Shown here: piece by piece, positions 1 through 19,244 of the stretch
How the letters are laid out: each line of letters begins with the position of its first letter
Numbering within the stretch: position 1 is the stretch's first letter
Source of the DNA: an uncultured virus (IMG/VR IMGVR_UViG_3300048890_000135)
Lineage: Duplodnaviria > Heunggongvirae > Uroviricota > Caudoviricetes
Reading direction: 5' to 3' (one strand)
DNA length: 20,000 nucleotides
Virus record (IMG/VR): IMGVR_UViG_3300048890_000135
Notes under the pieces: generated by a model
Databases searched by the model: none
What the model saw: only the letters and a program-made list of their open reading frames with translations
What the model was told of the DNA's origin: nothing
Position numbers and translations under genes: made by a program

Positions 1-1386
1 GGATCCGGAAGCGGATCCCCAGGGCCTCAGGGAAACCAGGGTCCTCAAGGTTTCCAAGGCGTCCAAGGTCCCCAGGGGTTCCAGGGCCTTCAAGGAAGCG
101 GCGTACAGGGACCTCAAGGAAATCAGGGAAACCAGGGAAATCAGGGCTTCCAGGGGGCGCTCAACCCTGACATCTTCGCCGCCACCCGCGTCGTCAGCCT
201 GATCGCAGGAGACGGGACCGATCTGACGATCGCCGCGGCGATCGCAGCCCTCCCTGCTGAGGGAGGCTACATCTATATCAAACAAGGAATCTACCCGCTC
301 GCCGCATCGCTGGTTCCCACGAACAAGCCGATCGTGTTCCTGGGGAGCGGAGACGGAACGATTCTCAGCCTGGGCGCGAATGTAATCTCCGCGTTCACGA
401 TCAACTTCAACCAGAGGTATACCTTTGGAAGAATGCGGATCTTGGGCGGCGGCGTTGCCGGGCAGGTCGCTTTCGAATTTAACATTGGCGGGTCGTCGAC
501 TGAATCGGTCACGATGTCGGACGTCACGGTCGACAACATGGAGAAGCCGTTCCTGGTCGCCGGGACCGACTTCCCGCTCGTCCACACGACGGACTGCTTC
601 TTCCGTGTGGCGAACCTTGCGACCTCGCGCCACTGGGATGGTCCGGGCGAGTGGCGCGCCAGCAACACGATCGCGTCGTTCACCGGAGTCGTTCCTCGTG
701 GCGGATTCGCAAACAACCCGGATCTGGCGTGGGTCAATTCCGAGGTGTGGATTCCGGGCGCGGGTGACGTCAACTACGTCCAGATGGATCGTTGTCGGAT
801 CCTGAACGGAACCCTGTCCGTGGGCGCTCAGGGAAGCATCATCGGAGATTCCGTCTTCGATACGAACGCGGTGATCACCCGGTTCATCGACATCCTGGCC
901 GCTGCGAATGCAGTTGTCCTTGAGGGGTGCTCCTTCGGATCCACGACCTCTCAGAGAGTCCGGATTGCCAGCCAGAACTGCATCGTCGACGGGAACAGCG
1001 GCCTTGACGTCGAGGAGATCGGAACGGCGGACTTCAACAGGTACGATGGGAACGATCCGTTCTTCCAGAACTCCGTGATCATCGGTGACAACAGCCTCGT
1101 CAACAACGAAGGAACCGCGACGGTCGCTGTCAACACGCTTCTCACCGGCTATTCCCGCACGATCGAGGTGGACGCAAGCGGCGGCGCGCGCACGATCACG
1201 CTGCCGCCGGCTGCCGGGGTCAACAAGATCGTCTACACGATCAAGAAGATCGACGCGAGCGCGAACAACGTGACGATCGACCCGGATGCCGCCGAACTCA
1301 TCGACGGCGTTGCGACCCAGCTTCTGACCACCCAGTGGCAGGCCCTGCGAATCCAGTCCAATGGAACAGGGTGGATCATTATTTAG
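1..1386 (+). CDS. 5'-truncated collagen-containing tail fibre/tailspike-like protein (G-X-Q collagen, beta-helix body, C-terminal fibre-type domain)
   Basis: Frame 1 is open from base 1, so the true start lies upstream of the window rather than at 334. It reads GSGSGSPGPQGNQGPQGFQ...DIFAATRVVSLIAGDGTDLTIAAAIAALPAEGGYIYIKQGIYPL, resembling a beta-helix cap. The C-terminus, ITLPPAAG...YTIKKIDASANNVTIDP...ELIDG...SNGTGWIII, is a module common in phage fibres. Confidence 0.75.
   Translation, partial: GSGSGSPGPQGNQGPQGFQGVQGPQGFQGLQGSGVQGPQGNQGNQGNQGFQGALNPDIFAATRVVSLIAGDGTDLTIAAAIAALPAEGGYIYIKQGIYPLAASLVPTNKPIVFLGSGDGTILSLGANVISAFTINFNQRYTFGRMRILGGGVAGQVAFEFNIGGSSTESVTMSDVTVDNMEKPFLVAGTDFPLVHTTDCFFRVANLATSRHWDGPGEWRASNTIASFTGVVPRGGFANNPDLAWVNSEVWIPGAGDVNYVQMDRCRILNGTLSVGAQGSIIGDSVFDTNAVITRFIDILAAANAVVLEGCSFGSTTSQRVRIASQNCIVDGNSGLDVEEIGTADFNRYDGNDPFFQNSVIIGDNSLVNNEGTATVAVNTLLTGYSRTIEVDASGGARTITLPPAAGVNKIVYTIKKIDASANNVTIDPDAAELIDGVATQLLTTQWQALRIQSNGTGWIII
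22..153 (+). repeat. Collagen-like (Gly-X-Gln)n coding repeat
   Basis: 14 G-X-Q triplets (GPQ, GNQ, GFQ, GVQ, GLQ) with a single GS interruption at 94-99. Confidence 0.95.
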
Positions 1387-1616
1387 CGGTGCATCATGAG
1401 CTTCCCGGAAACCCAGATTAAAGGATCAATCCTGGTCGGAAGCAGCGTGGCGGGTGCCGCCAGCATGACGCCGCTTCCAGTAGGCCCCGACGGCCAGGTC
1501 TTGACCGCGGATTCGACCCAGCCCACAGGATTGAAGTGGGCTCCAGCGGGTGCGGGATCGGATATCTACGCGGCCACCAGAGTTGTCAGCTTGATTGCCG
1601 GAGATGGGACCGACCT
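1386..1616 (+). repeat. Direct repeat copy 1 (231 bp; partner at 3502-3732)
   Basis: Base-by-base comparison gives 230/231 identity; the only difference is a synonymous T1455/C3571. Confidence 0.95.
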
Positions 1617-3228
1617 TACCATCGCTGCGGCGATCCTCGCATTGCCTGCCGAAGGTGGTTTGATCTATGTCAAGCAAGGTACATACCCCTTGGCCGCTAG
1701 CATTGCTCTACCTGCAGGGAAGCCTGTCACAATAAGGGGTTCTGGAAGCGGTACGATCATCAGCTTGGGCGCGAATGCCATCCCAGCCTTCACCATCCCA
1801 ACGGGCTACACCGCCAACACGCCTATCGTCTTGGACAACTTCCTTGTCACCGGCACCGAAGTGGCCGGCCAGACCGTCGTCCAGTACGGGGACAACAATG
1901 GCCTGGCCGAAGTCTACATGGAGAACATCGTCACGACGGGTGTGGAGCTGACCATCGACTCCGCAAGCACCTCTTCGGCATCATCCGCCCCTGGACAGGA
2001 CGATCCGCGTTTCCATCTCCTCCGGTGCCGTATCCGTCCCTGCTCGACCAACAACAGCGTCATCCTACACAACTCGAGCTTCGGTCTTCCTCGCGCTTGG
2101 CTCACCGAGGTCGAGTTCATCGGGGACTCGCTGTTCGCCATCCCCGCGCTCCGGACGGCCCCGCTCTTCGGAAGACTTGCTGACGACACTTGGTTCGGCG
2201 ACTGCTATCTCGACACTTGCGAGATGTCCATCGGGACGGGCGAAAGCGACTTCGCTACGTTCGAGTGCTTCAACAGCACCCTCTGGAACAACGACGACGT
2301 CAACTTGACGGTCACTTACTTCCTCTTCGGCAGTTTCGAGGGCCTCAACCCGGGTACCGTTCGGGACTCGTCGTGCCGTGGCATCTACTTCGAGGCCGAA
2401 GAGGCTGGATCGAACTTCTTCTCGAACTGGCTTCAGGACTGCCCCATCGGGATCTTCGGCGCTGGTGTCGTGGTCGGCGACAACCAGCTCATCGAAGTGC
2501 GGAATCCCTGGCCTGTCGCTCATCCCTTCGGTATTCAAATTCAGAATGAGCAGGCGGTGATCCGCAACAACCGGTTCCGGTTCCGGCAGACGACTCCCCC
2601 GCAGATCATTGATGTTGAGGTATCTACCAGAATTCTCGGAAACGATTTCTCCGAGTGCTTCCCCCCTGTGAACGGGACGATCCTGCTCAATAGCGGCGAG
2701 AACATCATCACCGACAACTATTTCACGTTCGCGCCGACCACAGGACCGAACGTCAACGAGACGGGCGGCGGTGGCGCGAGCTATTACGACAACAACAACC
2801 GTCTGTTCACGAACAAGACCGGCGGCGGCCCCATCGTGGATCCGATCCTCCCTCGTGGAAACGGATCGACCATTCAGGGGACGACCGGCGTTGCCGGGAG
2901 CGCCTCCGTCGGCGGGACGGCGACAAACAGCCTCATCGTCTGGTATCGGAATCCATACGGTCTGGCGATGGTGAAGGGTTACATCCAGAACAACGGTGTG
3001 AACAACATCACGGTCCAGGAGACCTTCCGCCTCGATACCCTGGGCACTTTCACGAAGTCCACGGTGGTAGTCCCTGGCGCTAAGCTGACGCTCGACCCGT
3101 ATGACTTCGCGGGAACAGCTATCCCGGCGGGATCCTTCCAGGTGTACGACTACCGAGTGGACGTTTCGGGTACCACGATTGCTTGGTATACATTCTTCCC
3201 GATGCCCGGCGGCGTGCTCGGAACCTAA
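1396..3228 (+). CDS. Tailspike/receptor-binding-like protein with right-handed beta-helix (610 aa)
   Basis: N-terminal LPVGPDGQVLTADSTQPTGLKW fibre motif, a cap reading AAILALPAEGGLIYVKQGTYPL, and Asn-ladder-like repeats (IRNNRF, ILGNDF, ITDNYF). Confidence 0.75.
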   Translation: MSFPETQIKGSILVGSSVAGAASMTPLPVGPDGQVLTADSTQPTGLKWAPAGAGSDIYAATRVVSLIAGDGTDLTIAAAILALPAEGGLIYVKQGTYPLAASIALPAGKPVTIRGSGSGTIISLGANAIPAFTIPTGYTANTPIVLDNFLVTGTEVAGQTVVQYGDNNGLAEVYMENIVTTGVELTIDSASTSSASSAPGQDDPRFHLLRCRIRPCSTNNSVILHNSSFGLPRAWLTEVEFIGDSLFAIPALRTAPLFGRLADDTWFGDCYLDTCEMSIGTGESDFATFECFNSTLWNNDDVNLTVTYFLFGSFEGLNPGTVRDSSCRGIYFEAEEAGSNFFSNWLQDCPIGIFGAGVVVGDNQLIEVRNPWPVAHPFGIQIQNEQAVIRNNRFRFRQTTPPQIIDVEVSTRILGNDFSECFPPVNGTILLNSGENIITDNYFTFAPTTGPNVNETGGGGASYYDNNNRLFTNKTGGGPIVDPILPRGNGSTIQGTTGVAGSASVGGTATNSLIVWYRNPYGLAMVKGYIQNNGVNNITVQETFRLDTLGTFTKSTVVVPGAKLTLDPYDFAGTAIPAGSFQVYDYRVDVSGTTIAWYTFFPMPGGVLGT

Positions 3229-3238
3229 GAGGGGAGCC

Positions 3239-3460
3239 ATGCTAGTTTCTTACTGTGTCGAGTGTCTTCCACAGAAGGTGGTCCTTGGATATAACGATCG
3301 GATCTGTGAGCTCCGGACTCCTCACAGAGCTCATCCGCAGACGAAGAAGCTCGGCTACTTTCCGATCTCCTACAAGGGATGGAGGCAGGTCTTCGTCGAG
3401 GGCGACGATGCTCAGACCAAGGAAAACATCATCGCTCAGTTCGGAAATGAATTTGTTTAA
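3239..3460 (+). CDS. Small hypothetical protein (73 aa, CxxC near N-terminus)
   Basis: GAGGGGAG RBS precedes ATG 3239, giving MLVSYCVECLPQ.... This is a better start than the track's 3101, which overlaps the upstream gene. Confidence 0.7.
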   Translation: MLVSYCVECLPQKVVLGYNDRICELRTPHRAHPQTKKLGYFPISYKGWRQVFVEGDDAQTKENIIAQFGNEFV

Positions 3461-3501
3461 ACTATGCCCAGTAGAGCTCGTCGGTAGAGCTCCTCAAGAC
3501 G

Positions 3502-3732
3502 GCGGTGCATCATGAGCTTCCCGGAAACCCAGATTAAAGGATCAATCCTGGTCGGAAGCAGCGTGGCGGGCGCCGCCAGCATGACGCCGCTTCCAGTAGG
3601 CCCCGACGGCCAGGTCTTGACCGCGGATTCGACCCAGCCCACAGGATTGAAGTGGGCTCCAGCGGGTGCGGGATCGGATATCTACGCGGCCACCAGAGTT
3701 GTCAGCTTGATTGCCGGAGATGGGACCGACCT
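3502..3732 (+). repeat. Direct repeat copy 2 (231 bp; partner at 1386-1616)
   Basis: Offset of 2116 bp from copy 1; includes 10 nt upstream of the ATG. Confidence 0.95.
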
Positions 3733-5326
3733 CACGGTCGCAGCCGCGATCCTGGCCCTTCCTGCGGAAGGCGGCCGGATCTACGTTAAGCAGGGCACTT
3801 ACCCGCTGACGCTCACGAACACTTTGCCGGACAAGCCGGTGGATATCATCGGCTCTGGTGATGGGACGATCTTCGACTTGGGCGCGAATGCGATCTCCGC
3901 CTTCACGATCCCCAACGGACTGACGGCGCAGAGAGCCTATAGCTTCCAGCATTTCAAGGTTATCGGGACATCGGTCGCCAACCAGCGATTCCTGAGTGTC
4001 GAGGACGCAAACGCCTTCGGACAACCCACGATCAAGAGTGTCCGGACGGAGGGGGTCCAGGTCCCGATCGACGTGGTTGATGCGGATGAAAACGTTCTGA
4101 ACGCTCTCTACATCAATGTCTACGATTCGTGGTTCGTCCCCATTGCGGATGGAAGCGGCGTCCTTTGTAGGGACAATACCGGCGGATTGCTCGTAAGCGC
4201 CTCGTTCTACGGCACGAGATTTATTGTTGACGAGTTCAGCGCCGTCGGAGGCACGATCGGCGGTGACACGTTCGGCGCACTCGACGCCAGCTTCTACGAT
4301 TGCAGCGTTTCCTACACGGGCGAAGACGGCCTGGGGACGATCCATGCTGAGCGGTCCCGCTTCTTTAACTTCAGCGGGACGCCCCAGATCATCTTCATGT
4401 TCGGCCAGTTCGCGGCCGGCGACGAATACACCACGACGACGCACTTCATAAACTGCGATGTGCTGGGACTATGGTTCATCGAAACCGCGGGCATGAACGT
4501 CACGGGTGGCTGGTGGGTAAATGATCGGATCGAAACGGGAGGAAACAACACCAGGTCCGCGTTCGTGGGCGTCGCGTTCCATGGGGAGGTCACTTCTCCT
4601 GCGGTTTTCCCGGTTTCTGGGGGCATCACCGCATTCTTCGGAACCGCTGGCGGAGACGTCAGCATTGAGGGCTGCACGTTCTCGGCCACCGGCGGTGGAA
4701 TCACGGCGTACATCTATACCAGCTCCGACTTCGTGATCAAGGGATGCGCCTTCCGTGGCCTCTCTGCGGCCTCGACGGCGGGCATCCGGTTCAACGGACC
4801 AAACAACTTCGTCCTCGGCTGCGACTTCGACACGGACAACTGGGGTTGTCCTCCAATTCTCGAAGTTGGAATCAATGCGGACCGGAACGTCTACAACGAC
4901 TGTCTCGGCCTCAACGGCAACCCCAATCCGCTTATCGGTGGTGCCGGAGTCGCTTCCGTCTTCGTCGGTGTCCGAAACACCTTTAACGGACTTTCGCAGT
5001 TCCGGACCACCGGAGCGACAGTAAACGCCTTCACTACGATCACTAATCAGCTCGCCACTAGCGGCGTTCAGGGAATCGGCACGATCAAGAATACCGGCGT
5101 AAACGGCATGAACGTTCGGGAGACGGGCGTCGACCAGTTCGGAGTGACGAGCACCGTGACCACCCTGGTGGCCGCGGGCGGCGACTTACGCCTCGATCCA
5201 ACGAACAACGTAGGTACCGCGCGGCCGCCCTACACCCGGTACTCAATTGAGGTCCAAAGCGCTACCGCCGGCCTTCCGACGACTTACGATCTGCGTCTCG
5301 GAATGAATGGCGAAGTGACCTGGTAA
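3512..5326 (+). CDS. Tailspike/receptor-binding-like beta-helix protein, paralog of 1396-3228 (604 aa)
   Basis: Identical first ~75 aa, divergent beta-helix middle (IEGCTF, IKGCAF, VLGCDF), and a homologous C-terminal domain (IKNTGVNGMNVRET...LRLDP vs IQNNGVNNITVQET...LTLDP). Confidence 0.75.
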   Translation: MSFPETQIKGSILVGSSVAGAASMTPLPVGPDGQVLTADSTQPTGLKWAPAGAGSDIYAATRVVSLIAGDGTDLTVAAAILALPAEGGRIYVKQGTYPLTLTNTLPDKPVDIIGSGDGTIFDLGANAISAFTIPNGLTAQRAYSFQHFKVIGTSVANQRFLSVEDANAFGQPTIKSVRTEGVQVPIDVVDADENVLNALYINVYDSWFVPIADGSGVLCRDNTGGLLVSASFYGTRFIVDEFSAVGGTIGGDTFGALDASFYDCSVSYTGEDGLGTIHAERSRFFNFSGTPQIIFMFGQFAAGDEYTTTTHFINCDVLGLWFIETAGMNVTGGWWVNDRIETGGNNTRSAFVGVAFHGEVTSPAVFPVSGGITAFFGTAGGDVSIEGCTFSATGGGITAYIYTSSDFVIKGCAFRGLSAASTAGIRFNGPNNFVLGCDFDTDNWGCPPILEVGINADRNVYNDCLGLNGNPNPLIGGAGVASVFVGVRNTFNGLSQFRTTGATVNAFTTITNQLATSGVQGIGTIKNTGVNGMNVRETGVDQFGVTSTVTTLVAAGGDLRLDPTNNVGTARPPYTRYSIEVQSATAGLPTTYDLRLGMNGEVTW

Positions 5327-6374: not shown

Positions 6375-6815
6375 ATGCAAAGCGTGACCGACGCAACCTT
6401 CGATCAGGCGGTCTCGAGCGCACCGCTTGCGATCGTCGAGTTCTGGAACGATCGCTGCCCCAACTGTCAGAGGTTCGGGCCGATCTTCGCGGACGTCGCC
6501 TCCCAGATGGGCGACAAGATCGCCATGATCCAGGCGAACACCGACCAGAACCAGCAGAAGGCCGCTCAGTACGGCCTCACCGGCGTCCCGACCACGGTCT
6601 TCTTCTCCAACGGAAAGGAAGTCCACCGGGCTGTCGGTGCCATGGAGAAGTCGGACTTCCTGAACGAGATCTCAAAGTACCTCTCGACTGCAGGAAGCGC
6701 GCCCGGCGTCGTGGCCCCGGCCAGCGGTGCCCCTCCGAATGACGACGTTGTGAACGTCCTGGTCGGCGGAGCGGTCCTCGCCGGCGTCGTCTACGGGATG
6801 ACCCAGCTGATCTGA
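6375..6815 (+). CDS. Thioredoxin-family protein with C-terminal hydrophobic anchor
   Basis: VTDATFDQAV...IVEFWNDRCPNC...GVPTTVFFSNGKEVHRAVGA (Trx fold with cis-Pro loop), then a Pro/Ala linker and VVNVLVGGAVLAGVVYGMTQLI. GGAGG RBS. Confidence 0.9.
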   Translation: MQSVTDATFDQAVSSAPLAIVEFWNDRCPNCQRFGPIFADVASQMGDKIAMIQANTDQNQQKAAQYGLTGVPTTVFFSNGKEVHRAVGAMEKSDFLNEISKYLSTAGSAPGVVAPASGAPPNDDVVNVLVGGAVLAGVVYGMTQLI

Positions 6816-10127: not shown

Positions 10128-10669
10128 TGGCCGACGAAAAAGCCGCCCAGTGCTATAGCCTGGCCAAGCATGTCGAGCAGATCGACTGCGCCCTTCACGA
10201 TCTCAAGACAACCGTCCTGCCGAAGAAGGAGATGCGGCTCTTCAACGGTGTCGGAATGTCGCTCTACTCGCTTCAGGGGTCTGCAAAGAGCATCGGGAGC
10301 GCCCTTCCAGAGGTGAAGGCCGTCGCCGGAAAGCTTGCCCGACGCGCGAGGGATCTGGGGGAGATCGTTAAGCAGATCTCCACGGAGCCGGTCCCTCCGG
10401 TGATCGCGGAATTCATCAGGGACGATCTGGGGGCGCTCTGGGATCATCAGAGGATTCTTCTCCATGCCTCCGAGAAGGCCTGCCTTCGTCCTGGGGCTCC
10501 TGAGCCCGAAAAGATCACAGAGTCCTTCCGTCCGATTCCCCCTGACGTCAAGAAAGTCGCCGCCAAGATCCGTAAGGAGATCGACAGGAAGATCGCCAAG
10601 CGGAACCGGGAATATCAGCGGGAGATCAACCGTGCCATGAGGAAGTCCAGGAAGAAGAGAGGAAAGTGA
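10127..10669 (+). CDS. Hypothetical helical protein with very basic C-terminus
   Basis: TGATG coupling at 10125-10129; tail ...RAMRKSRKKRGK. Confidence 0.7.
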   Translation: MADEKAAQCYSLAKHVEQIDCALHDLKTTVLPKKEMRLFNGVGMSLYSLQGSAKSIGSALPEVKAVAGKLARRARDLGEIVKQISTEPVPPVIAEFIRDDLGALWDHQRILLHASEKACLRPGAPEPEKITESFRPIPPDVKKVAAKIRKEIDRKIAKRNREYQREINRAMRKSRKKRGK

Positions 10670-11487
10670 GATTTCCAGCAGGGGTACGGAAGGCGATCGA
10701 CCTCTATCGGGAGAAGATTGAAGCCGTCGCCGGGGGATGGGTGGATTGGCAGAATCCGTTCGGATGCGGAAGCTACGGATGCGTGTTTCCGCTCTGGACG
10801 AAGGATGTAGCTTACGACCAGCCCGGCGATCAAGCGCGGCCGTTGGATCGTGTCCTCAAGATCTCCACTGACCCCACCGAAGGGCCAGTTGTAAGTGCGA
10901 TCATGAAGACGAAGCTTGATAAGCGCCTCAACGGTCTTGCCCGTTGGTACGGGGTTTGGCGGATCCCGGAACCACTCCAAAAGGGCCCTCGAGGAACCGG
11001 ATGGGTGATCATCCGGGAAGAGGTTCGACCCTTCAGCTTCAGCGACTATTCGTTTGGAGGATTCTCAAGTCGTAGCACCTGGCTCGATGAGCTCCAGAAC
11101 TACAACAAGTACACGCGGCGGGGGCTCGAGGCAAAGACCGAGAGGGGAAGGGAAAGGAACTTCGACGAAGCTCAGCAGGCGATCGGGAAGCTTTATAACG
11201 ATCAGGGCACCTACTCTGTCGCCGAAGCCATTGAGTCTTTGAGGCGCGAGGACATCATCCTGGCTGACGTTCACCAGGGGAATCTCGGGACTCGGATCCA
11301 TCCGACCGAGGAGCAGCCGCTTCAGAAGGCCTGGTGGGAAGACCGGAAGGAGCGTCCGCCGCTTCTCATTTTTGACCCCGGCCATTCTTCGGCTCCGGAA
11401 GGAACCTCCGTGGAGGATCTCTGGGCGGTGACCGCCGCGGCAAATCCATGGATGGGCGGGGAGGCCCAGGGGATCGAGGTTCTATAG
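10666..11487 (+). CDS. Protein kinase-like (Ser/Thr kinase fold) protein
   Basis: GCGSYGCV Gly-loop, VLK Lys, helix-C Glu (TE), DVHQGN catalytic loop, and FDPG in place of DFG. GTGA overlap with the upstream gene. Confidence 0.8.
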   Translation: MRFPAGVRKAIDLYREKIEAVAGGWVDWQNPFGCGSYGCVFPLWTKDVAYDQPGDQARPLDRVLKISTDPTEGPVVSAIMKTKLDKRLNGLARWYGVWRIPEPLQKGPRGTGWVIIREEVRPFSFSDYSFGGFSSRSTWLDELQNYNKYTRRGLEAKTERGRERNFDEAQQAIGKLYNDQGTYSVAEAIESLRREDIILADVHQGNLGTRIHPTEEQPLQKAWWEDRKERPPLLIFDPGHSSAPEGTSVEDLWAVTAAANPWMGGEAQGIEVL

Positions 11488-15027: not shown

Positions 15028-15287
15028 TGCCGAAAACCTTCGTGCTTACGGATTATTGGAACGAGAGACGGGACCATCGTCCATACAGGAATCATCTCCA
15101 CGATCCGAAGACCGACGAACTTATAAGCGACCAGAACGTTCTGGAGACGCTGATCAACGAGGCTGGCGCCGTTGACGGCGACGAGATTGAAATCGTCGTC
15201 CGGAAAACCGGGCGACGGCCTTTCGGAAATCGGAAGGTCCGTTTGGTCGAGCCCCACACCTATAAGAGAGAGCGCAGGTCGTCGTGA
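15027..15287 (+). CDS. Hypothetical protein (86 aa)
   Basis: TGATG coupling and GAAAGGA upstream; begins MPKTFVLTDYW. Confidence 0.65.
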   Translation: MPKTFVLTDYWNERRDHRPYRNHLHDPKTDELISDQNVLETLINEAGAVDGDEIEIVVRKTGRRPFGNRKVRLVEPHTYKRERRSS

Positions 15288-15538
15288 GAAATCTAGAGCA
15301 AGGCGAAGAGGTCATGCTTACCGGGCCCGCCGCGGCTTCGGCCCACAATGACGGCTTCAATCCTTACTACGGTCTCGTGGTGAAGGATCACGGCTGGAAC
15401 GTCGTCGACGCGGACCGCCAGGAGCTCGATATATGGGACGTGACCGTCCTATGGGAAGACGGGAAAGAGAGAACTCACCCGCGCAATACGCTTATGGCGT
15501 GGGCCGATGTTCCTGGTGCTCCGTCCAGAAGGTCGTGA
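15284..15538 (+). CDS. Small hypothetical protein, possibly an SH3-like beta-barrel
   Basis: GTGA overlap; pattern LEQGEEV...GLVV...VTVLWEDGKERTHP. Confidence 0.6.
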   Translation: MRNLEQGEEVMLTGPAAASAHNDGFNPYYGLVVKDHGWNVVDADRQELDIWDVTVLWEDGKERTHPRNTLMAWADVPGAPSRRS

Positions 15539-15563
15539 AACCGGCATCCGATCGGGGTACAAT
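15535..15563 (+). promoter_or_regulatory. Sigma70-type promoter
   Basis: GTGAAA-17 bp-TACAAT. Confidence 0.5.
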
Positions 15564-15586
15564 TCTATGGTCATCGCGAGGTGGCC

Positions 15587-15676
15587 ATGTTCAATCAGCG
15601 TACTACGAAGCCTCCGGTTAACGGCTTCATTCAGGTCAAGAATGCGATGGGGAGGACCGTAGGTCCGACCACTTAA
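15587..15676 (+). CDS. 29-aa micro-ORF not in the ORF track
   Basis: GAGGTGG SD-like sequence just before ATG 15587; MFNQRTTKPPVNGFIQVKNAMGRTVGPTT*. Its TAA abuts the in-frame ATG 15677. Confidence 0.5.
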   Translation: MFNQRTTKPPVNGFIQVKNAMGRTVGPTT

Positions 15677-17128
15677 ATGCCGAAGAAAATCCCTCCCCGC
15701 ACAACCGGAAAGTGCCGTCCTGGTCGTCCTCAGACGAGGAACTGTCCAAAAGGATGGACATCGGTTCCAGGGCAATACCGGCCGGGGATGGCGACTTTCC
15801 CGACGTCGGTTCTTTTCCCGTTCTCTAATTCTGCCGGACAACCTGCGTCGCCAGCGCCATCCCCAACACCGACCCCAGCGCCTCCCCCTCCTCCAGTTAC
15901 CTTCGAAGACACACTCACCCCAGTCGGCTTTACGATTCCAGAAGGTCCTGCAACATTTTTCGTTTCCGGCGGCGGTGCCGCGCTTGCGGCAGCCGTAGGT
16001 AGTGCGTCTCCGGGCGACACCATCGAAATCACGGACTCTCTCAACTACGACGCGATCACGATATTCAATCCCACGGACCTTACGATTCGCGCGGCGTCCG
16101 GGCAGACGCCCTCGATCACGGCGATGGCGGGAGGCTTCAACCACGCCGTGGACATCCAGGGTACCGTGAACGGCCTTCGGTTCCGAGGTATCACCTTCAT
16201 CGGGAACGGAAACAGCGGCTCGCATAACATCAGCGATCTGGGTCGCACCGGGATCGTGTTCTGGTCCCAACTTGCGGGTGGAGCCTCCTTGGACCGGATC
16301 ATCCTGGAAGATTGCACGTTCTCGGAACCCGCAGCGACGGCCGGCGACGGGTGCCCCGGACTTACGCTCTTCGGCGACGGCCTGACCGTGAACGACAACG
16401 TCTGGGTTCATCGCTGCTCGTTCCTGAACACATCCGCCGTGACCGGAGTCGGCGGTCTCCAGTGGGGCGCGATCACGATCGGCGGGTTCCAGAACGTCTG
16501 GATCCAGAATTGCAAGATCGTGCGCCAGGATGCGGTTTTGTCGAGCGTTCTCAGCAACATGAAGGGCGTGGTGGTCCAGAATGCAAACACGATCGTGGAA
16601 GACGTGCTCTGCGACCAGATCGGCACGAACGGGAACCCGCAGGCTTTCATGCATGACGGCCTGCCCGGTATCGCGATCGGCTTTGGCGGAACTACGAGCT
16701 GCCGTAATTGCGTGGCCTATAACTGCCGGATTGGGTACGAGCTCCGCCTTGCCGTCGGAAGCATGACGATCGAGAACTGCGTCTACGCCTCGCCCACCGT
16801 GGGCGGCGGCGGCGTGGTGATGCGACGCTCAAACGGAACGCCTTACGTGGTCCAGGATTCGGCGATGTCGTGCAACGGGACCGGGATCACGTTCAGCGCC
16901 ACGGGCGTCACCGAAGATCACAATGATGTCTTCAACTTCTCTGCTACAGGGAAGGTTCTGGATGCGACCGATCAGACCGTTGATCCACTCTACAAAGACA
17001 TCGCAAACCGCATCTTTACTGCAACGGCACCGTCCCTCCAGACCGGTGCTTCCGATGGCGGCCTGATCGGCGTGCGGTACACGGTCGGCGAGGAGATTTT
17101 CTGGGTCAATACTCTGCAGGGGACTTGA
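15677..17128 (+). CDS. Right-handed parallel beta-helix (pectin-lyase-like fold) protein with basic Pro/Cys leader
   Basis: LAAAVGSASPGDTIEI cap; repeats ILEDCTF, VHRCSF, IQNCKI, IENCVY; C-terminal VDPLY...SLQTGASDGGLIG. Confidence 0.8.
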   Translation: MPKKIPPRTTGKCRPGRPQTRNCPKGWTSVPGQYRPGMATFPTSVLFPFSNSAGQPASPAPSPTPTPAPPPPPVTFEDTLTPVGFTIPEGPATFFVSGGGAALAAAVGSASPGDTIEITDSLNYDAITIFNPTDLTIRAASGQTPSITAMAGGFNHAVDIQGTVNGLRFRGITFIGNGNSGSHNISDLGRTGIVFWSQLAGGASLDRIILEDCTFSEPAATAGDGCPGLTLFGDGLTVNDNVWVHRCSFLNTSAVTGVGGLQWGAITIGGFQNVWIQNCKIVRQDAVLSSVLSNMKGVVVQNANTIVEDVLCDQIGTNGNPQAFMHDGLPGIAIGFGGTTSCRNCVAYNCRIGYELRLAVGSMTIENCVYASPTVGGGGVVMRRSNGTPYVVQDSAMSCNGTGITFSATGVTEDHNDVFNFSATGKVLDATDQTVDPLYKDIANRIFTATAPSLQTGASDGGLIGVRYTVGEEIFWVNTLQGT

Positions 17129-17208
17129 TACAATCCATGGGAAGCTTGGTCATTCTTATGAGGTAAAGTAGGTCGGCTTCACGAAGAAATTTTGACAGGA
17201 GAGGTGAT

Positions 17209-18054
17209 ATGGCGCCAAGACAATTTCCCCCGAGACGTCGCTTCACCCCAGCGCCTTGCCCTCCCTGCAAACCCGGTACGTATCGAGGTGCGTTCGGAGG
17301 AGGACCCACGTCCACTCCGTGGAACAACGGCGGACGTTTCACGTCTCCGCTGGATGTCCCCGGTGTCGCCGCGGCGATCAACGCGAGGCTTGGCCCAGAC
17401 CCAGTACCTCTCCTGTCGGCCGCGTTCTTCAAGATTCTGACGAAGGCGGGAATCACCAACGTTCCCACCTCCCAGATCATCGGCAACATGGGCGTCAGTC
17501 CCATCACCTCTGCCGCGATCACAGGATTCGCTCTGGTGCTGGACGGCTCTGGACAGTTCTCGACCTCGTCCCAGGTGGACGGCAGGGTCTACGCCGCCGA
17601 CTACGCGCCGCCGACGCCTGCCATGCTCACGCAGGCGGTCCTCGATATGGAGGCCGCGTACACCGACGCCGCGAGCAGGGTCCCCGACGTCACAGGCCTC
17701 AACGCCGGCCTGATCGGCGGCCTCACGCTCGCGCCCGGCACGTATCGCTGGAATTCCAACGTCCTGATCGCATCCGACCTCATCCTGGCGGGAGGCCCCA
17801 ACGACACCTGGATCTTCCAGGTCAACGGGACTCTAGATCTGGCCGCCGCGATGAACATCATCATGATCGGCGGAGCGGTTCCCGCGAACGTGATCTGGCA
17901 GGTCACCGGCGCCGTCACAATCGGTCCTGGCGCGACGTTCAGGGGCAACATTCTGGCCCAGACGAGCGTTGCCGTGCAGACCGGCGCATCGGTGTTCGGA
18001 AAGCTGCTCGCGCAGACGGCGGTGACGCTGGACAACAACCTGGTGAACGGCTAG
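17209..18054 (+). CDS. Ice-binding-like protein (DUF3494 family)
   Basis: Family-typical FKILTKAGITNVPTSQIIGNMGVSP...VYAADYAPPTPAMLTQAVLDMEAAYTDAASR...LAPGTYRW...WIFQV...NVIWQVTGAVTIG...GNILAQT...GKLLAQTAVTLDNN; GGAGAGGTG RBS. Confidence 0.92.
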   Translation: MAPRQFPPRRRFTPAPCPPCKPGTYRGAFGGGPTSTPWNNGGRFTSPLDVPGVAAAINARLGPDPVPLLSAAFFKILTKAGITNVPTSQIIGNMGVSPITSAAITGFALVLDGSGQFSTSSQVDGRVYAADYAPPTPAMLTQAVLDMEAAYTDAASRVPDVTGLNAGLIGGLTLAPGTYRWNSNVLIASDLILAGGPNDTWIFQVNGTLDLAAAMNIIMIGGAVPANVIWQVTGAVTIGPGATFRGNILAQTSVAVQTGASVFGKLLAQTAVTLDNNLVNG

Positions 18055-18122
18055 GAAGGCTGCTACCAGCAAGTGAATTTGTCGTAGATAGCGTGGAAGC
18101 GTGTCCCGAGATGGACCGCCTG

Positions 18123-18151
18123 TTGACATCTTCGCGCGGGCGGGGCATGAT
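18123..18151 (+). promoter_or_regulatory. Sigma70-type promoter
   Basis: TTGACA-17 bp-CATGAT upstream of 18189. Confidence 0.65.
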
Positions 18152-18188
18152 TGATAAAGGGCAGCGCTAACTCGAACCGGAGAGAACC

Positions 18189-18551
18189 ATGTCCGAATCG
18201 TTTACCGCGGTCGAATACGCCATCCTGGTTCATCTGAAGACCCAGGGGCGTGCTACGGTCCCAGCGCTCGCCGCGGATCTTCTCCTGCGTCCGAGCGAAG
18301 TGGAGACGGCCCTTTCCGGTCTGGTCGCGAAGAACTTCTCGAAAAAAGAGGGGGACTTCTATCTGCCTGGAGACGTCTGCCTGGACGTTCCCGTTGCCCA
18401 GGAAAAGAAGGAGAAGAGCGGAACGTTCAAGATCATTCGACCCATGCCCATGCCTGCCGCAGCTCCCGCTGCAGCGATGCCGGAAGTCGCCAACGTCTTC
18501 AAACAGGCTCGCGATCGCGCCAGGCGCGAAAAAGCGGGCGGCGGCGTCTAG
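18189..18551 (+). CDS. Winged helix-turn-helix protein (TrmB/MarR-like)
   Basis: EYAILVHLKTQGRATVPALAADLLLRPSEVETALSGLVAKNF; GGAGAG RBS. Confidence 0.75.
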   Translation: MSESFTAVEYAILVHLKTQGRATVPALAADLLLRPSEVETALSGLVAKNFSKKEGDFYLPGDVCLDVPVAQEKKEKSGTFKIIRPMPMPAAAPAAAMPEVANVFKQARDRARREKAGGGV

Positions 18552-18575
18552 CACGTCCTAATTTGACGTTCACTT

Positions 18576-18584
18576 TGGTATAAT
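18576..18584 (+). promoter_or_regulatory. Extended -10 promoter element
   Basis: TGgTATAAT in the AT-richer gap before 18639. Confidence 0.55.
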
Positions 18585-18638
18585 CAAACCGTGATTTGAG
18601 TGACGTCCCCTAGTCCAAGTTAGGGCGCTCATTGAGTT

Positions 18639-19244
18639 ATGACGAGCGGGAATGACGTCTCCTTTTGGATGCCTTACGCCCTCGCCTCGGTCCTCGCCTT
18701 TCTCGGAACGACTCTCGATCTCATCGACCGCTGGAAAGGACGACCTTCGCGCACGTTTCTTCCTCAGGCGACGGCTTTTGGAATCCTCAACGCTGGCGGC
18801 GCGATGCTTCTTTACAACTTCGGGGGCCAGATCGACTCCTTGAAGGAAGTCCAGAGCGCCATGCTCCGCGCGCTCATCGTGGGGATCTCCTACCAGATCA
18901 TCATCCGCTCGAGACTGACGACGATCGGCAAGCAGCCGATCGGCGTCGAGTGGTTCTACGAGAAGGTGAAGAGCCTGTTCGATTGGTGGATCCGGGAGAG
19001 CGTCGGGAAGGCGAGGCTTAGGCGTCTCCCAGAGCTCCGCGCGCTCAGTCTCGACGCCACGATGACTCATTTCGACGACATCCTGGTCGCATCAGTTACG
19101 ATCCCAGCGGACGAGAAGGATCGCCTCCGGGTCTGGGCGGTCGGCGTCTATTCGGATTCCCACCCAGAAAACTGGAAGAAGGACAGCCTGATCCGCAGGA
19201 TTGTGGACATCGAGATCCCGGATGCCGTAGAATTGGTGAAGTGA
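18639..19244 (+). CDS. Putative membrane protein (about 3 hydrophobic segments plus soluble C-terminal domain)
   Basis: YALASVLAFLG, AFGILNAGGAMLLY, ALIVGISYQIII. The start may be the second Met (MPYAL). Confidence 0.65.
   Translation: MTSGNDVSFWMPYALASVLAFLGTTLDLIDRWKGRPSRTFLPQATAFGILNAGGAMLLYNFGGQIDSLKEVQSAMLRALIVGISYQIIIRSRLTTIGKQPIGVEWFYEKVKSLFDWWIRESVGKARLRRLPELRALSLDATMTHFDDILVASVTIPADEKDRLRVWAVGVYSDSHPENWKKDSLIRRIVDIEIPDAVELVK

What the first reader, a model, noticed from the sequence alone, without database searches (positions are those of the whole stretch)
17209..18054. Intact DUF3494 ice-binding-family protein without a signal peptide in a phage-like genome
Seen: a complete DUF3494-type domain whose N-terminus is basic and Pro/Cys-rich with no hydrophobic core, set among virus-like genes. 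Established: DUF3494 proteins are mostly secreted or surface proteins of cellular microbes, spread by horizontal transfer, and many inhibit ice recrystallisation or mediate adhesion. Inference: this could be a virion-displayed ice-binding or adhesion protein giving freeze protection or surface attachment, or a protein released on lysis.
Basis: partly seen in the sequence, partly recalled or inferred. Interest (0 to 1): 0.8.

Follow-up and report, generated by a model that had tools for sequence, protein, structure and literature searches.

The report
Signal-less ice-binding-fold protein in soil phage
A large uncultured soil virus of bacteria carries a well-conserved copy of the microbial "ice-binding protein" fold whose usual export signal is replaced by a short cysteine- and proline-rich tether, so it probably works outside the cell without normal secretion, though what it binds is untested.

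Summary
ORF 17209-18054 (+) encodes a 281-aa protein with a full-length PF11999/DUF3494 domain (E 7.6e-72) and an IBP-1 fold (49-52% identical to solved ice-binding proteins). It has no signal peptide, and an in-frame TAA 15 codons upstream rules out a longer N-terminus.

It is not a stray cellular gene. It belongs to one well-supported clade (SH-like 99) that shares an N-terminal CxxC...FGGP...W module and a 39-67-aa Pro/Gly-rich linker. This form was absent from the 80 best relatives in 185,579 species genomes, most of which carry signal or lipoprotein leaders. It occurs only on contigs related to two 236-266 kb IMG/VR records that hold 43 tRNA genes.

The window also encodes three tailspike-like beta-helix proteins. 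Its DNA turns up in soil, root and rhizosphere metagenomes, not in icy habitats. dN/dS against a diverged relative is 0.04, and 0.05 for the N-terminal part.

My best reading (about 0.4) is a tethered, Sec-independent surface-binding module. Release at lysis is the main rival. Ice binding is plausible but untested. No capsid, portal or terminase gene was found in the relatives. I rate it a new variant of a known kind.

The parts
17209..18054 (+). Complete gene for the 281-aa signal-less DUF3494 protein (P0001), stop codon included
   Evidence: dN/dS 0.040 against the 98%-identical protein of L114
17209..17391 (+). N-terminal module, residues 1-61: basic prefix, CPPC at residues 17-20 (nt 17257-17268), FGGGP..PW motif, then a Pro/Gly/Ala-rich linker. 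Predicted disordered.
   Evidence: Alignment A1: C17, C20 and G32 invariant in 31 sequences. 30 of 31 have CxxC and 21 have CGPC; spacing from Cys2 to the domain is 39-67 aa. pLDDT is below 50 for residues 5-57. dN/dS 0.053.
17392..18051 (+). DUF3494 / IBP-1-fold beta-solenoid domain, residues 62-281 (Pfam envelope 76-279)
17164..17166 (+). In-frame TAA that closes the reading frame upstream of the start codon
17197..17204 (+). Shine-Dalgarno-like AGGAGAGG, ending 4 nt before the ATG
   Evidence: SD-like motifs before 14 of 27 window genes, against 0.24 at random positions
18189..19244 (+). Two downstream genes: a 120-aa winged-helix-like protein (18189-18551) and a 201-aa unknown protein (18639-19244). 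They follow the DUF3494 gene in the same order in the diverged relative L120.
   Evidence: Weak MarR match, E 0.0059. tblastn to L120: 44% and 69% identity, directly after its DUF3494 gene.
15677..17128 (+). Variable upstream neighbour, a 483-aa ORF with no family match. Absent from the syntenic 98-kb relative L114, so it is not a fixed partner.
1..5326 (+). Three paralogous tailspike-like genes, which are context for calling this a tailed phage: 1-1386 (5'-cut, collagen-like repeat plus beta-helix), 1396-3228 and 3512-5326
   Evidence: Collagen match and 'tail fiber' PHROGs hits that come through the collagen repeat. Of 30 relatives of 3512-5326, 6 match PF12708 and 5 match Beta_helix. AlphaFold2 pLDDT 84.6; the best Foldseek matches are phage tailspikes or depolymerases (E 4e-8, probability 1.0, but TM only 0.18-0.37).

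Best explanation
The gene encodes a real single-domain DUF3494 (IBP-1 fold) protein that a lineage of very large soil and rhizosphere phage-like elements has kept and passed on vertically. In this lineage the Sec or lipoprotein leader of cellular homologues has been replaced by a short conserved N-terminal module and a flexible Pro/Gly-rich linker of about 40-65 residues. The module runs Met-x(3-16)-Pro-Cys-x-x-Cys...Phe-Gly-Gly-Pro...Trp.

I think the N-terminal module most likely acts as a tether. It may work through its vicinal cysteine pair by disulfide or metal bridging, but that is inference. It would fix the protein to a phage-made structure, most plausibly the particle, while the linker holds the flat beta-solenoid face outward to bind an ordered surface. 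That surface could be ice during soil freeze-thaw or another regular surface such as polysaccharide or mineral.

Shown: the domain, the fold, the lack of a signal peptide, the conserved module, the single clade, its absence from the cellular genomes examined, purifying selection, and the phage-type context. Inferred: the tethering, the partner, the role of the cysteines, and the ligand.
For: Domain and fold.

No leader and no alternative start.

Conserved N-terminal module: C17, C20 and G32 are invariant, and P16, P19, G31 and P33 are at least 90% conserved in 31 sequences that are 57-98% identical. 30 of 31 have CxxC. The linker is 39-67 aa and 68% Pro/Gly/Ala/Ser/Thr. It is disordered in the model.

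The N-terminal part is translated and constrained: dN/dS is 0.053 for codons 1-61, with 20 synonymous against 4 non-synonymous differences from L114. The domain gives 0.028. A merely soluble protein would have little reason to conserve such a module.

One origin: 39 of 40 motif-bearing rows form one clade with SH-like support 99, together with one 5'-cut row and one short row. The fortieth row, L124, is a lipoprotein that my regular expression picked up falsely.

Not cellular: the best 80 of 137 relatives found in one genome each of 185,579 species match only residues 41 onward, at 59% identity or less. 0 of 80 have the module and 63 of 80 have a hydrophobic leader.

Always in the same kind of element: the contigs that carry the clade (L114, L115, L116, L117, L120) share other genes with the 266-kb IMG/VR record G001. 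G001 holds 43 tRNA genes, a release factor, RNA ligases, ribonucleotide reductase, HNH endonucleases and collagen-like tailspike paralogues up to 87% identical to those in the window.

Display of this domain on fibres occurs in near relatives. P0083, whose domain is 60% identical, has a collagen-like stalk before the DUF3494 domain, and L030 has the domain inside a protein of at least 1222 aa. Unchecked earlier notes of this scan report DUF3494 cassettes in phage sheath, baseplate, fibre and decoration proteins.
Against: No partner was identified. The module was not found on any other protein of the window, G001, G003 or L002, nor in a search with residues 1-61 alone, where 3 of 3 hits were DUF3494 clade members. 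That search was limited to proteins of 154-492 aa and to word matches.

The module shows no similarity to the N-termini of the collagen-like spike proteins (median z 0.02, maximum 2.4).

The gene is not inside a recognised structural block. Its neighbours are small unknown ORFs, an HNH endonuclease, a weak methyltransferase match and a winged-helix-like protein. It has its own intergenic spacers of 80 and 134 nt, like a self-standing cassette.

No capsid, portal or terminase gene was found in the 266-kb relative. So even the statement that a particle exists rests on tailspike-like genes and the IMG/VR classification.

The habitat is soil, root and rhizosphere rather than ice.

There are no expression or proteome data.
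Confidence: 0.4

Rival explanations
1. It is a free soluble protein released at lysis. The phage needs no signal peptide because host lysis spills the protein into the soil pore water. There it inhibits ice recrystallisation, or coats surfaces, around the progeny particles and neighbouring host cells.
For: There is no signal peptide. The domain is 44-52% identical to proteins with measured ice-binding activity. The positions equivalent to TisAFP7 T20 and A214, where Tyr substitutions cut activity by 60% and 50%, are small here: A80 and T273. The gene has its own spacers and sits outside any recognised structural block. PF11999 genes on Arctic viral contigs have been read as cryoprotective auxiliary genes (PMC11515562, passages read).
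Against: This does not explain why a Cys-x-x-Cys module and a long linker are conserved under purifying selection across a clade as low as 57% identical. Other IMG/VR forms (L026-L028) manage with the bare domain. The holders are soil and rhizosphere samples, with no sign of an icy habitat.
Confidence: 0.3
2. It is exported by a non-classical route. The N-terminal module would be a leader that a dedicated exporter or peptidase recognises and cleaves near the invariant Gly-Gly, in the manner of double-glycine leaders, so the mature domain is secreted during infection before lysis.
For: A short N-terminal module ends in a nearly invariant Gly-Gly (G31 at least 90% conserved, G32 invariant) about 15-30 residues from the start in most members. 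The comparison with double-glycine leaders is recalled, not tested.
Against: I saw no ABC transporter or C39 peptidase among the Pfam and PHROGs hits of G001 ORFs of 175 aa or more. The module lacks the amphipathic helix of such leaders and is Pro-rich. The linker after the Gly-Gly is also retained.
Confidence: 0.08
3. It has an intracellular role during infection. The beta-solenoid would bind a host structure or molecule in the cytoplasm, for example as a take-over or anti-defence factor, and would never leave the cell in functional form.
For: There is no export signal. The surrounding genes look like early or accessory genes (HNH, ParB-like, thioredoxin, methyltransferase, winged helix). A promoter-like TACAAT box upstream is shared with L114 (by eye, not scored by the scan).
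Against: Every characterised member of the family acts outside the cell, and most cellular relatives carry leaders (PMC11645318, passages read). Near relatives of the domain sit on fibre-like proteins. Domain conservation with extracellular ice-binding proteins is very high.
Confidence: 0.1
4. The element is not a phage. The window and its relatives would be parts of a large plasmid or other non-viral mobile element, or a mis-classified cellular region, and the protein is just an odd cellular DUF3494 protein.
For: No capsid, portal or terminase match in G001 or G002 (PHROGs; Pfam; six-frame PF03237 and PF05065 gave nothing, and PF17289 gave only 13.7 bits inside a helicase ORF). No similarity to 50,697 GenBank phage records. 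Most genes match nothing.
Against: Three tailspike-like proteins lie in the window. G001 and G002 are IMG/VR records with CheckV completeness of 92% and 90%. G001 has 43 tRNA genes, a release factor, RNA-repair genes and many HNH endonucleases, as huge phages do (the comparison with huge phages is from my own knowledge). Genes are tightly packed on one strand. The clade was absent from the best 80 hits in 185,579 species genomes.
Confidence: 0.07

Closest known systems
Single-domain microbial ice-binding proteins of the DUF3494 / IBP-1 fold: Candidatus Cryosericum odellii IBPs (PDB 9LHN, 9LHS, 9LI0), TisAFP6/7/8 (3VN3, 7DC5/7DDB, 5B5H), LeIBP (3UYU), FfIBP (4NU2), ColAFP (3WP9)
   Same: One complete PF11999 domain. 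Same fold: TM by target 0.89-0.94 and 44-52% identity. Residues are small at the positions matching TisAFP7 T20 and A214.
   Different: No signal peptide. It has a conserved CxxC/Pro-Gly N-terminal module and linker instead. It is encoded on a huge phage-like element from soil. Its activity is untested. It scores 204 bits against the NCBIfam ice-binding equivalog NF045625, below the 400-bit cut-off.
PF11999 'ice-binding-like' auxiliary genes reported on Arctic viral contigs (Microbiome 2024, PMC11515562; passages read)
   Same: A DUF3494 gene on a viral contig, read as an adaptation of the virus or a benefit to the host.
   Different: That paper reports three annotated hits in polar surface water. 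The passages I read give no analysis of architecture or leader (supplements not read). The present clade is terrestrial, has its own N-terminal module, and is inherited within one phage lineage rather than looking like a recent host gene.
DUF3494 domains built into phage virion proteins: here P0083 (collagen-like stalk plus DUF3494) and L030 (protein of at least 1222 aa), plus unchecked earlier notes of this scan (e1-5975563, e1-5979479, e1-5941982)
   Same: A signal-less DUF3494 domain carried by phages and attached to a non-secretory N-terminal part. The domain of P0083 is 60% identical to this one.
   Different: Here the N-terminal part is only about 61 residues, is disordered, and has no recognisable virion domain. 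The protein stands alone and forms its own clade.
Lipoprotein-type phage DUF3494, from the 84.5-kb IMG/VR record G003
   Same: A single phage-borne DUF3494 domain, 55% identical.
   Different: It has a classical lipoprotein leader with a lipobox Cys and lies in a different, AT-rich phage. It falls outside the CxxC clade.

Membership tests
DUF3494 / Pfam PF11999 (Ice_binding) | Full-length match to the family profile above the gathering score | tested here: met
   241.8 bits against 28.7; profile positions 1-207 of 208
DUF3494 / IBP-1 fold | Discontinuous beta-solenoid braced by one long alpha-helix | tested here: met
   AlphaFold2: helix at 138-155 and strands through 74-274, with pLDDT above 90 over most of 140-270. 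Foldseek TM by target 0.93 to 9LHS, and the top 30 hits are all IBP-1 structures.
Functional ice-binding proteins (antifreeze / recrystallisation inhibitors) | Measured thermal hysteresis, ice recrystallisation inhibition or ice-plane binding | not testable with these tools
   No conserved ice-binding-site motif exists in this family (PMC7966756), so sequence cannot decide.
Functional ice-binding proteins (antifreeze / recrystallisation inhibitors) | Unobstructed flat b-face: small residues at the positions where Tyr substitutions reduce TisAFP7 activity (T20, A214) | tested here: inconclusive
   Through the 3VN3 alignment they map to A80 and T273. T273 is at least 90% conserved in the clade. 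This is compatible with ice binding but is not proof.
NCBIfam NF045625 IBP_CFB (ice-binding protein, equivalog) | Score at or above the curated cut-off of 400 bits | tested here: not met
   204.2 bits
Secreted or lipoprotein cellular DUF3494 proteins | N-terminal Sec or lipoprotein signal peptide | tested here: not met
   Maximum 12-mer hydropathy 1.24, against at least 2.0 in 63 of 80 cellular relatives. No upstream start is possible. This is a heuristic; SignalP was not available.
Phage auxiliary gene copied from the host (AMG in the usual sense) | Close cellular counterpart of the same architecture, on a confirmed viral genome | tested here: not met
   The best cellular relatives are at most 59% identical, match the domain only, and 0 of 80 have the module. 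The viral status of the genome is supported but not proven.
Phage tail fibre / receptor-binding protein with a DUF3494 head | Recognisable virion-attachment or stalk region N-terminal to the domain | tested here: not met
   Residues 1-61 are disordered and match nothing. Relatives such as P0083 do have a collagen-like stalk.

The most novel reading that the evidence does not exclude
A lineage of huge soil phages decorates its particles with an ice-binding-fold protein. The protein would be attached by a new kind of N-terminal cysteine-pair tether on a flexible Pro/Gly leash. Virions would then carry their own surface-gripping or ice-recrystallisation-inhibiting coat, which would help them survive freeze-thaw cycles or stick to soil and root surfaces. 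The CxxC module would be a previously undescribed virion-attachment device.
Probability: 0.3. Interest if true: 0.75.

Novelty: new variant of a known kind. Interest (0 to 1): 0.55.

Why it matters
DUF3494 proteins are the commonest microbial ice-binding proteins, and they are thought of as secreted or surface proteins of cells. In the papers I could search, their presence in viruses is limited to a few annotation-level mentions as cryoprotective auxiliary genes (only open-access papers and bioRxiv were searched).

This case shows a phage-restricted form under strong selection whose export signal has been exchanged for a conserved cysteine-pair module. That raises a testable question: how does a virus place an extracellular binding domain without secretion, and does it protect or anchor virus particles in soils that freeze and thaw?

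The protein is small and should be easy to express. Ice-activity assays and tests of the N-terminal module are therefore direct experiments. If the protein proves active and particle-bound, it would be a new mechanism of virion persistence in soil and a new attachment motif.

Tried and rejected
1. Identifying the genome. No whole genome is held. An exact-match scan of viral contigs with the gene's first 39 bases found nothing. Metagenome records could not be opened further. Megablast and tblastn against 50,697 GenBank phage records found nothing for the window, P0001 (even at E up to 1), the 604-aa spike or the 483-aa ORF.

2. Looking for capsid, portal or terminase genes in the 266-kb relative. 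I ran PHROGs on 95 and then 110 ORFs, Pfam on 81 ORFs, and six-frame searches with PF03237, PF05065 and PF17289. I found no convincing hit. My ORF calling was home-made, and ORFs under 175 aa and a few that cross chunk borders were not scanned. Atlas look-ups of two large unknown G001 ORFs were uninformative, with all scores below 0.9.

3. The idea that the N-terminal module resembles the N-termini of the phage's collagen-like proteins is rejected (median z 0.02, maximum 2.4). The idea that it is a collagen-like Gly-X-Y stretch is also rejected: only two consecutive triplets fit, by eye, in A1.

4. The module on other proteins: not found.

5. Homotrimer prediction of the protein: no answer. 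The score was 0.01 against a mark of 0.42, and this is evidence neither for nor against.

6. Expression: no RNA holder was listed among 24 runs.

7. L124 looked like a motif-bearing outlier. It is a lipoprotein that my regular expression matched falsely.

8. A possible link between the phage thioredoxin and the CxxC pair could only be noted, not tested.

9. The earlier-findings look-ups by place and by sequence returned nothing.

10. No paper on the Cryosericum structures was found.
Full report
**Observation.** The window has an ATG-initiated ORF at 17209-18054 on the + strand, coding for 281 aa. Pfam places a complete PF11999 (Ice_binding, DUF3494) domain at residues 76-279. The match has E 7.6e-72 and 241.8 bits against a cut-off of 28.7, and covers profile positions 1-207 of 208. 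An AlphaFold2 model built on 31 relatives has mean pLDDT 77.6. The domain is mostly above 90, and residues 5-57 are below 50. Foldseek against the PDB returns only IBP-1-fold ice-binding proteins in the top 30. The best are the Candidatus Cryosericum odellii proteins 9LHS, 9LHN and 9LI0 (TM by target 0.93, 49-52% identity), followed by TisAFP, LeIBP, FfIBP and ColAFP. phmmer against PDB sequences gives 25 hits, best E 2.2e-62.

Its best 12-residue hydropathy is 1.24. An upstream start cannot supply a leader. An in-frame TAA lies at 17164-17166, and none of the 14 codons between it and the ATG is a start codon. A Shine-Dalgarno-like AGGAGAGG precedes the ATG.

**The N-terminus is a conserved module.** A search of 5.8 billion clustered proteins gave 4175 hits among 8000 scored candidates. 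I classified the 120 listed cluster representatives by their N-termini:
- 56 carry a Cys-x-x-Cys...[FLW]-G-G motif in the first 90 residues. One more, P0068, carries it by eye.
- 32 have a hydrophobic N-terminus.
- 32 have neither. These are fragments, bare domains, or proteins with other N-terminal parts.

In an alignment of 31 motif-bearing sequences, which are 57-98% identical to the query, C17, C20 and G32 are invariant. P16, P19, G31 and P33 are at least 90% conserved. Thirty of 31 have CxxC: 21 are CGPC, the window protein has CPPC, and one has CVC. The first Cys lies 3-39 residues from the annotated start (median 8). The stretch from the second Cys to the domain is 39-67 residues (median 44) and is 68% Pro, Gly, Ala, Ser and Thr.

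The window gene differs from its counterpart on a 98-kb metagenome contig (L114) at 54 synonymous and 7 non-synonymous sites. That gives dN/dS 0.040 overall, 0.053 for codons 1-61 and 0.028 for the domain. The N-terminal part is therefore translated and constrained.

**One clade, not seen in cellular genomes.** I built a FastTree of 199 domain sequences: clade members, 80 loci from species genomes, 80 metagenome loci and IMG/VR loci. It puts 39 of 40 motif-bearing rows in one clade with SH-like support 99. The clade also holds one row cut at its 5' end (L116) and one short protein (P0063). The fortieth row, L124, is a lipoprotein that my regular expression matched falsely. The sister relationships are poorly supported, so I name no donor.

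A scan of one genome for each of 185,579 prokaryotic species found 137 relatives. The best 80 match only from residue 41 or later, mostly 62-281, at 59% identity or less. None of the 80 has the module. Sixty-three of 80 have a hydrophobic or lipobox-type N-terminus, and seven of the rest are cut by a contig end. That scan works through conserved peptide patterns and keeps only the best 80, so absence is strong evidence but not absolute.

**What kind of element carries it.** No genome is held for the window. The window is 99% identical to a 10.5-kb metagenome contig. It is syntenic at 70-87% nucleotide identity with 15 kb of the 98-kb contig L114, which lacks the 483-aa ORF 15677-17128. Clade members at 59% identity lie on two IMG/VR records, G001 (266 kb, CheckV 92%) and G002 (236 kb, 90%). 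The window's collagen-like and spike-like proteins have paralogues in G001 at up to 87% identity. A 273-aa protein (10666-11487) has a 50% identical counterpart 2 kb upstream of G001's DUF3494 gene. Other clade-bearing contigs (L115, L116, L117, L120) also share genes with G001. L120 keeps the order DUF3494, winged-helix-like gene, 201-aa gene.

G001 has 43 tRNA genes between about 51.6 and 84 kb. It also has:
- a class-I release factor and Ro60/TROVE;
- RNA ligases and tRNA-His guanylyltransferase;
- ribonucleotide reductase, DNA ligase and a PolX thumb;
- a helicase and an integrase;
- several HNH endonucleases and methyltransferases;
- many glycosyltransferases.

From my own knowledge this repertoire is typical of huge phages. 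However, I found no capsid, portal or terminase match there. Nothing in the window or its spikes resembles any of 50,697 GenBank phage records.

The best direct evidence for a tailed virus comes from the window's first 5.3 kb. The 604-aa protein (3512-5326) has 1269 relatives in the representative library. Of 30 aligned relatives, 6 match PF12708 (pectate-lyase-like), 5 match Beta_helix and 3 match Collagen. Its model (pLDDT 84.6) finds phage tailspikes and depolymerases first, with E 4e-8 and probability 1.0, although TM-scores are low at 0.18-0.37. Shine-Dalgarno-like motifs precede 14 of 27 genes, against 24% at random positions, which points to a prokaryotic host.

I conclude that the setting is a large phage-like element of bacteria from a lineage with almost no annotated relatives. 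It is not an ordinary chromosome.

**Habitat.** The 6-kb stretch around the gene is held by 23 public runs from 20 studies. All are labelled soil, root or rhizosphere metagenome, and 6 hold half or more of its words. Contigs of four runs from four studies cover it with identical or near-identical pieces. No RNA holder was listed, which says nothing about expression. This is not an icy habitat, although such soils may freeze seasonally (my inference).

**Can it bind ice?** The domain is 44-52% identical to proteins with measured activity. The family has no conserved ice-binding-site motif (PMC7966756, passages read), so sequence cannot decide. In TisAFP7, T20Y and A214Y reduce thermal hysteresis by 60% and 50% (same passages). 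Through the TisAFP6 alignment these positions map to A80 and T273 here, both small. That is compatible with ice binding and no more. The protein scores below the cut-off of NCBI's ice-binding equivalog, 204 against 400 bits. Authors in the field note that DUF3494 proteins from non-freezing habitats may bind other surfaces (PMC11645318 and PMC12337378, passages read).

**How it most likely works.** The architecture is a short conserved N-terminal module, a long flexible linker and a globular binding domain, with no export signal. That is what one expects of a tethered, displayed domain. A soluble protein would not need the module, and other viral forms consist of the bare domain (L026-L028).

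The same domain subfamily occurs behind several other signal-less N-terminal parts. Examples are a collagen-like stalk with 'tail fiber' PHROGs hits (P0083, domain 60% identical) and a protein of at least 1222 aa on an IMG/VR contig (L030). Unchecked earlier notes of this scan describe DUF3494 cassettes in sheath, baseplate, fibre and decoration proteins of other soil phages.

I therefore favour, at about 0.4, a protein tethered by its N-terminal module to a phage-made structure, probably the particle, and presenting its flat face to ice or another ordered surface. The cysteine pair suggests a disulfide or metal bridge. CGPC is also the thioredoxin active-site tetrad (recalled). The phage encodes a thioredoxin with a CPNC site and a hydrophobic C-terminal tail (6375-6815). 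Any link between the two is speculation.

The main rival, at about 0.3, is simple release at lysis. Weaker rivals are non-classical export, an intracellular role, and a non-viral element.

Several points weigh against tethering:
- No partner was found.
- The gene lies among accessory-type genes with its own spacers.
- A TACAAT box about 75 nt upstream is shared with L114 (by eye).
- There are no proteome data.

**Comparison with what is known, and novelty.** The protein is a member of PF11999 with the IBP-1 fold. It is not shown to be a functional ice-binding protein. Full-text searches found no paper on DUF3494 in phage structural proteins or on a signal-less phage form: 'DUF3494' with 'phage' (1 unrelated paper), 'ice-binding' with 'bacteriophage' (51 papers, 20 listed), 'ice-binding' with 'tail fiber' and 'phage' (4), and 'PF11999' with 'viral' (15, 10 listed). 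The nearest is the report of three PF11999 auxiliary genes on Arctic viral contigs. Only open-access papers and bioRxiv were searched, and no supplements were read. I class the finding as a new variant of a known kind: a known domain, with a new N-terminal module, in a phage-restricted lineage.

**Verdict.** Interest is 0.55. The case is clean and experimentally tractable, but the function is still open and the general theme of phage-borne DUF3494 already recurs in this scan's notes.

Noticed in passing
window 1-5326: Three paralogous tailspike-like genes. One has a collagen-like Gly-X-Y stalk (1-1386, cut at the window edge). Two share a different 55-residue N-terminus (1396-3228, 3512-5326). 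G001 has at least six such paralogues in its first 20 kb.
   Followed up: partly
window 6375-6815: Thioredoxin-fold protein with a CPNC active site, a Pro/Ala-rich linker and a hydrophobic C-terminal tail, which looks tail-anchored. Homologues lie about 7 kb upstream of the DUF3494 gene in G001. A link to the CxxC pair of the DUF3494 protein was not tested.
   Followed up: partly
window 15272-17174 vs L114 9461-9966: The 483-aa ORF (15677-17128), and probably the 84-aa ORF before it, are missing from the otherwise syntenic 98-kb relative. This is an insertion or deletion right next to the DUF3494 gene. The 483-aa protein matches no family and no GenBank phage.
   Followed up: partly
G001 (L014-L016), about 51.6-84 kb: An array of 43 tRNA genes covering nearly all amino acids. 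The same 266-kb record has a release factor, Ro60/TROVE, RNA ligases and tRNA-His guanylyltransferase. No capsid, portal or terminase was detectable by PHROGs or Pfam.
   Followed up: partly
G003 (L011), 82792-83583 minus strand: A different phage (84.5 kb, AT-rich) carries a DUF3494 protein with a classical lipoprotein leader. By eye, the neighbouring gene looks like a papain-type cysteine peptidase and there are small membrane proteins nearby. The peptidase call was not tested.
   Followed up: no
P0083, P0082, P0086/P0088, P0090/P0111, P0078, P0081, P0114; L029, L030: Near relatives of the domain (53-60% identical) sit behind at least seven different signal-less N-terminal parts of 70-250 residues. 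One is a collagen-like stalk. L030 has the domain inside a protein of at least 1222 aa. This suggests a swappable cassette.
   Followed up: partly
L026, L027, L028: Three small IMG/VR contigs encode a bare DUF3494 domain that starts directly at the first beta-strand, with neither leader nor tether.
   Followed up: no
window 17120-17140, 15555-15572, 18575-18590: G(A/G)TACAAT or GGTATAAT boxes lie upstream of the DUF3494 gene, the 483-aa ORF and the 201-aa gene. The one before the DUF3494 gene is conserved in L114 although the upstream gene differs. They may be promoter -10 elements.
   Followed up: no
window 17417-18220 in run X4: Summed contig depth over the DUF3494 domain is 29-50, against about 12 on the flanks. 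Variant contigs are also present, so the same soil sample holds further related DUF3494 genes.
   Followed up: no
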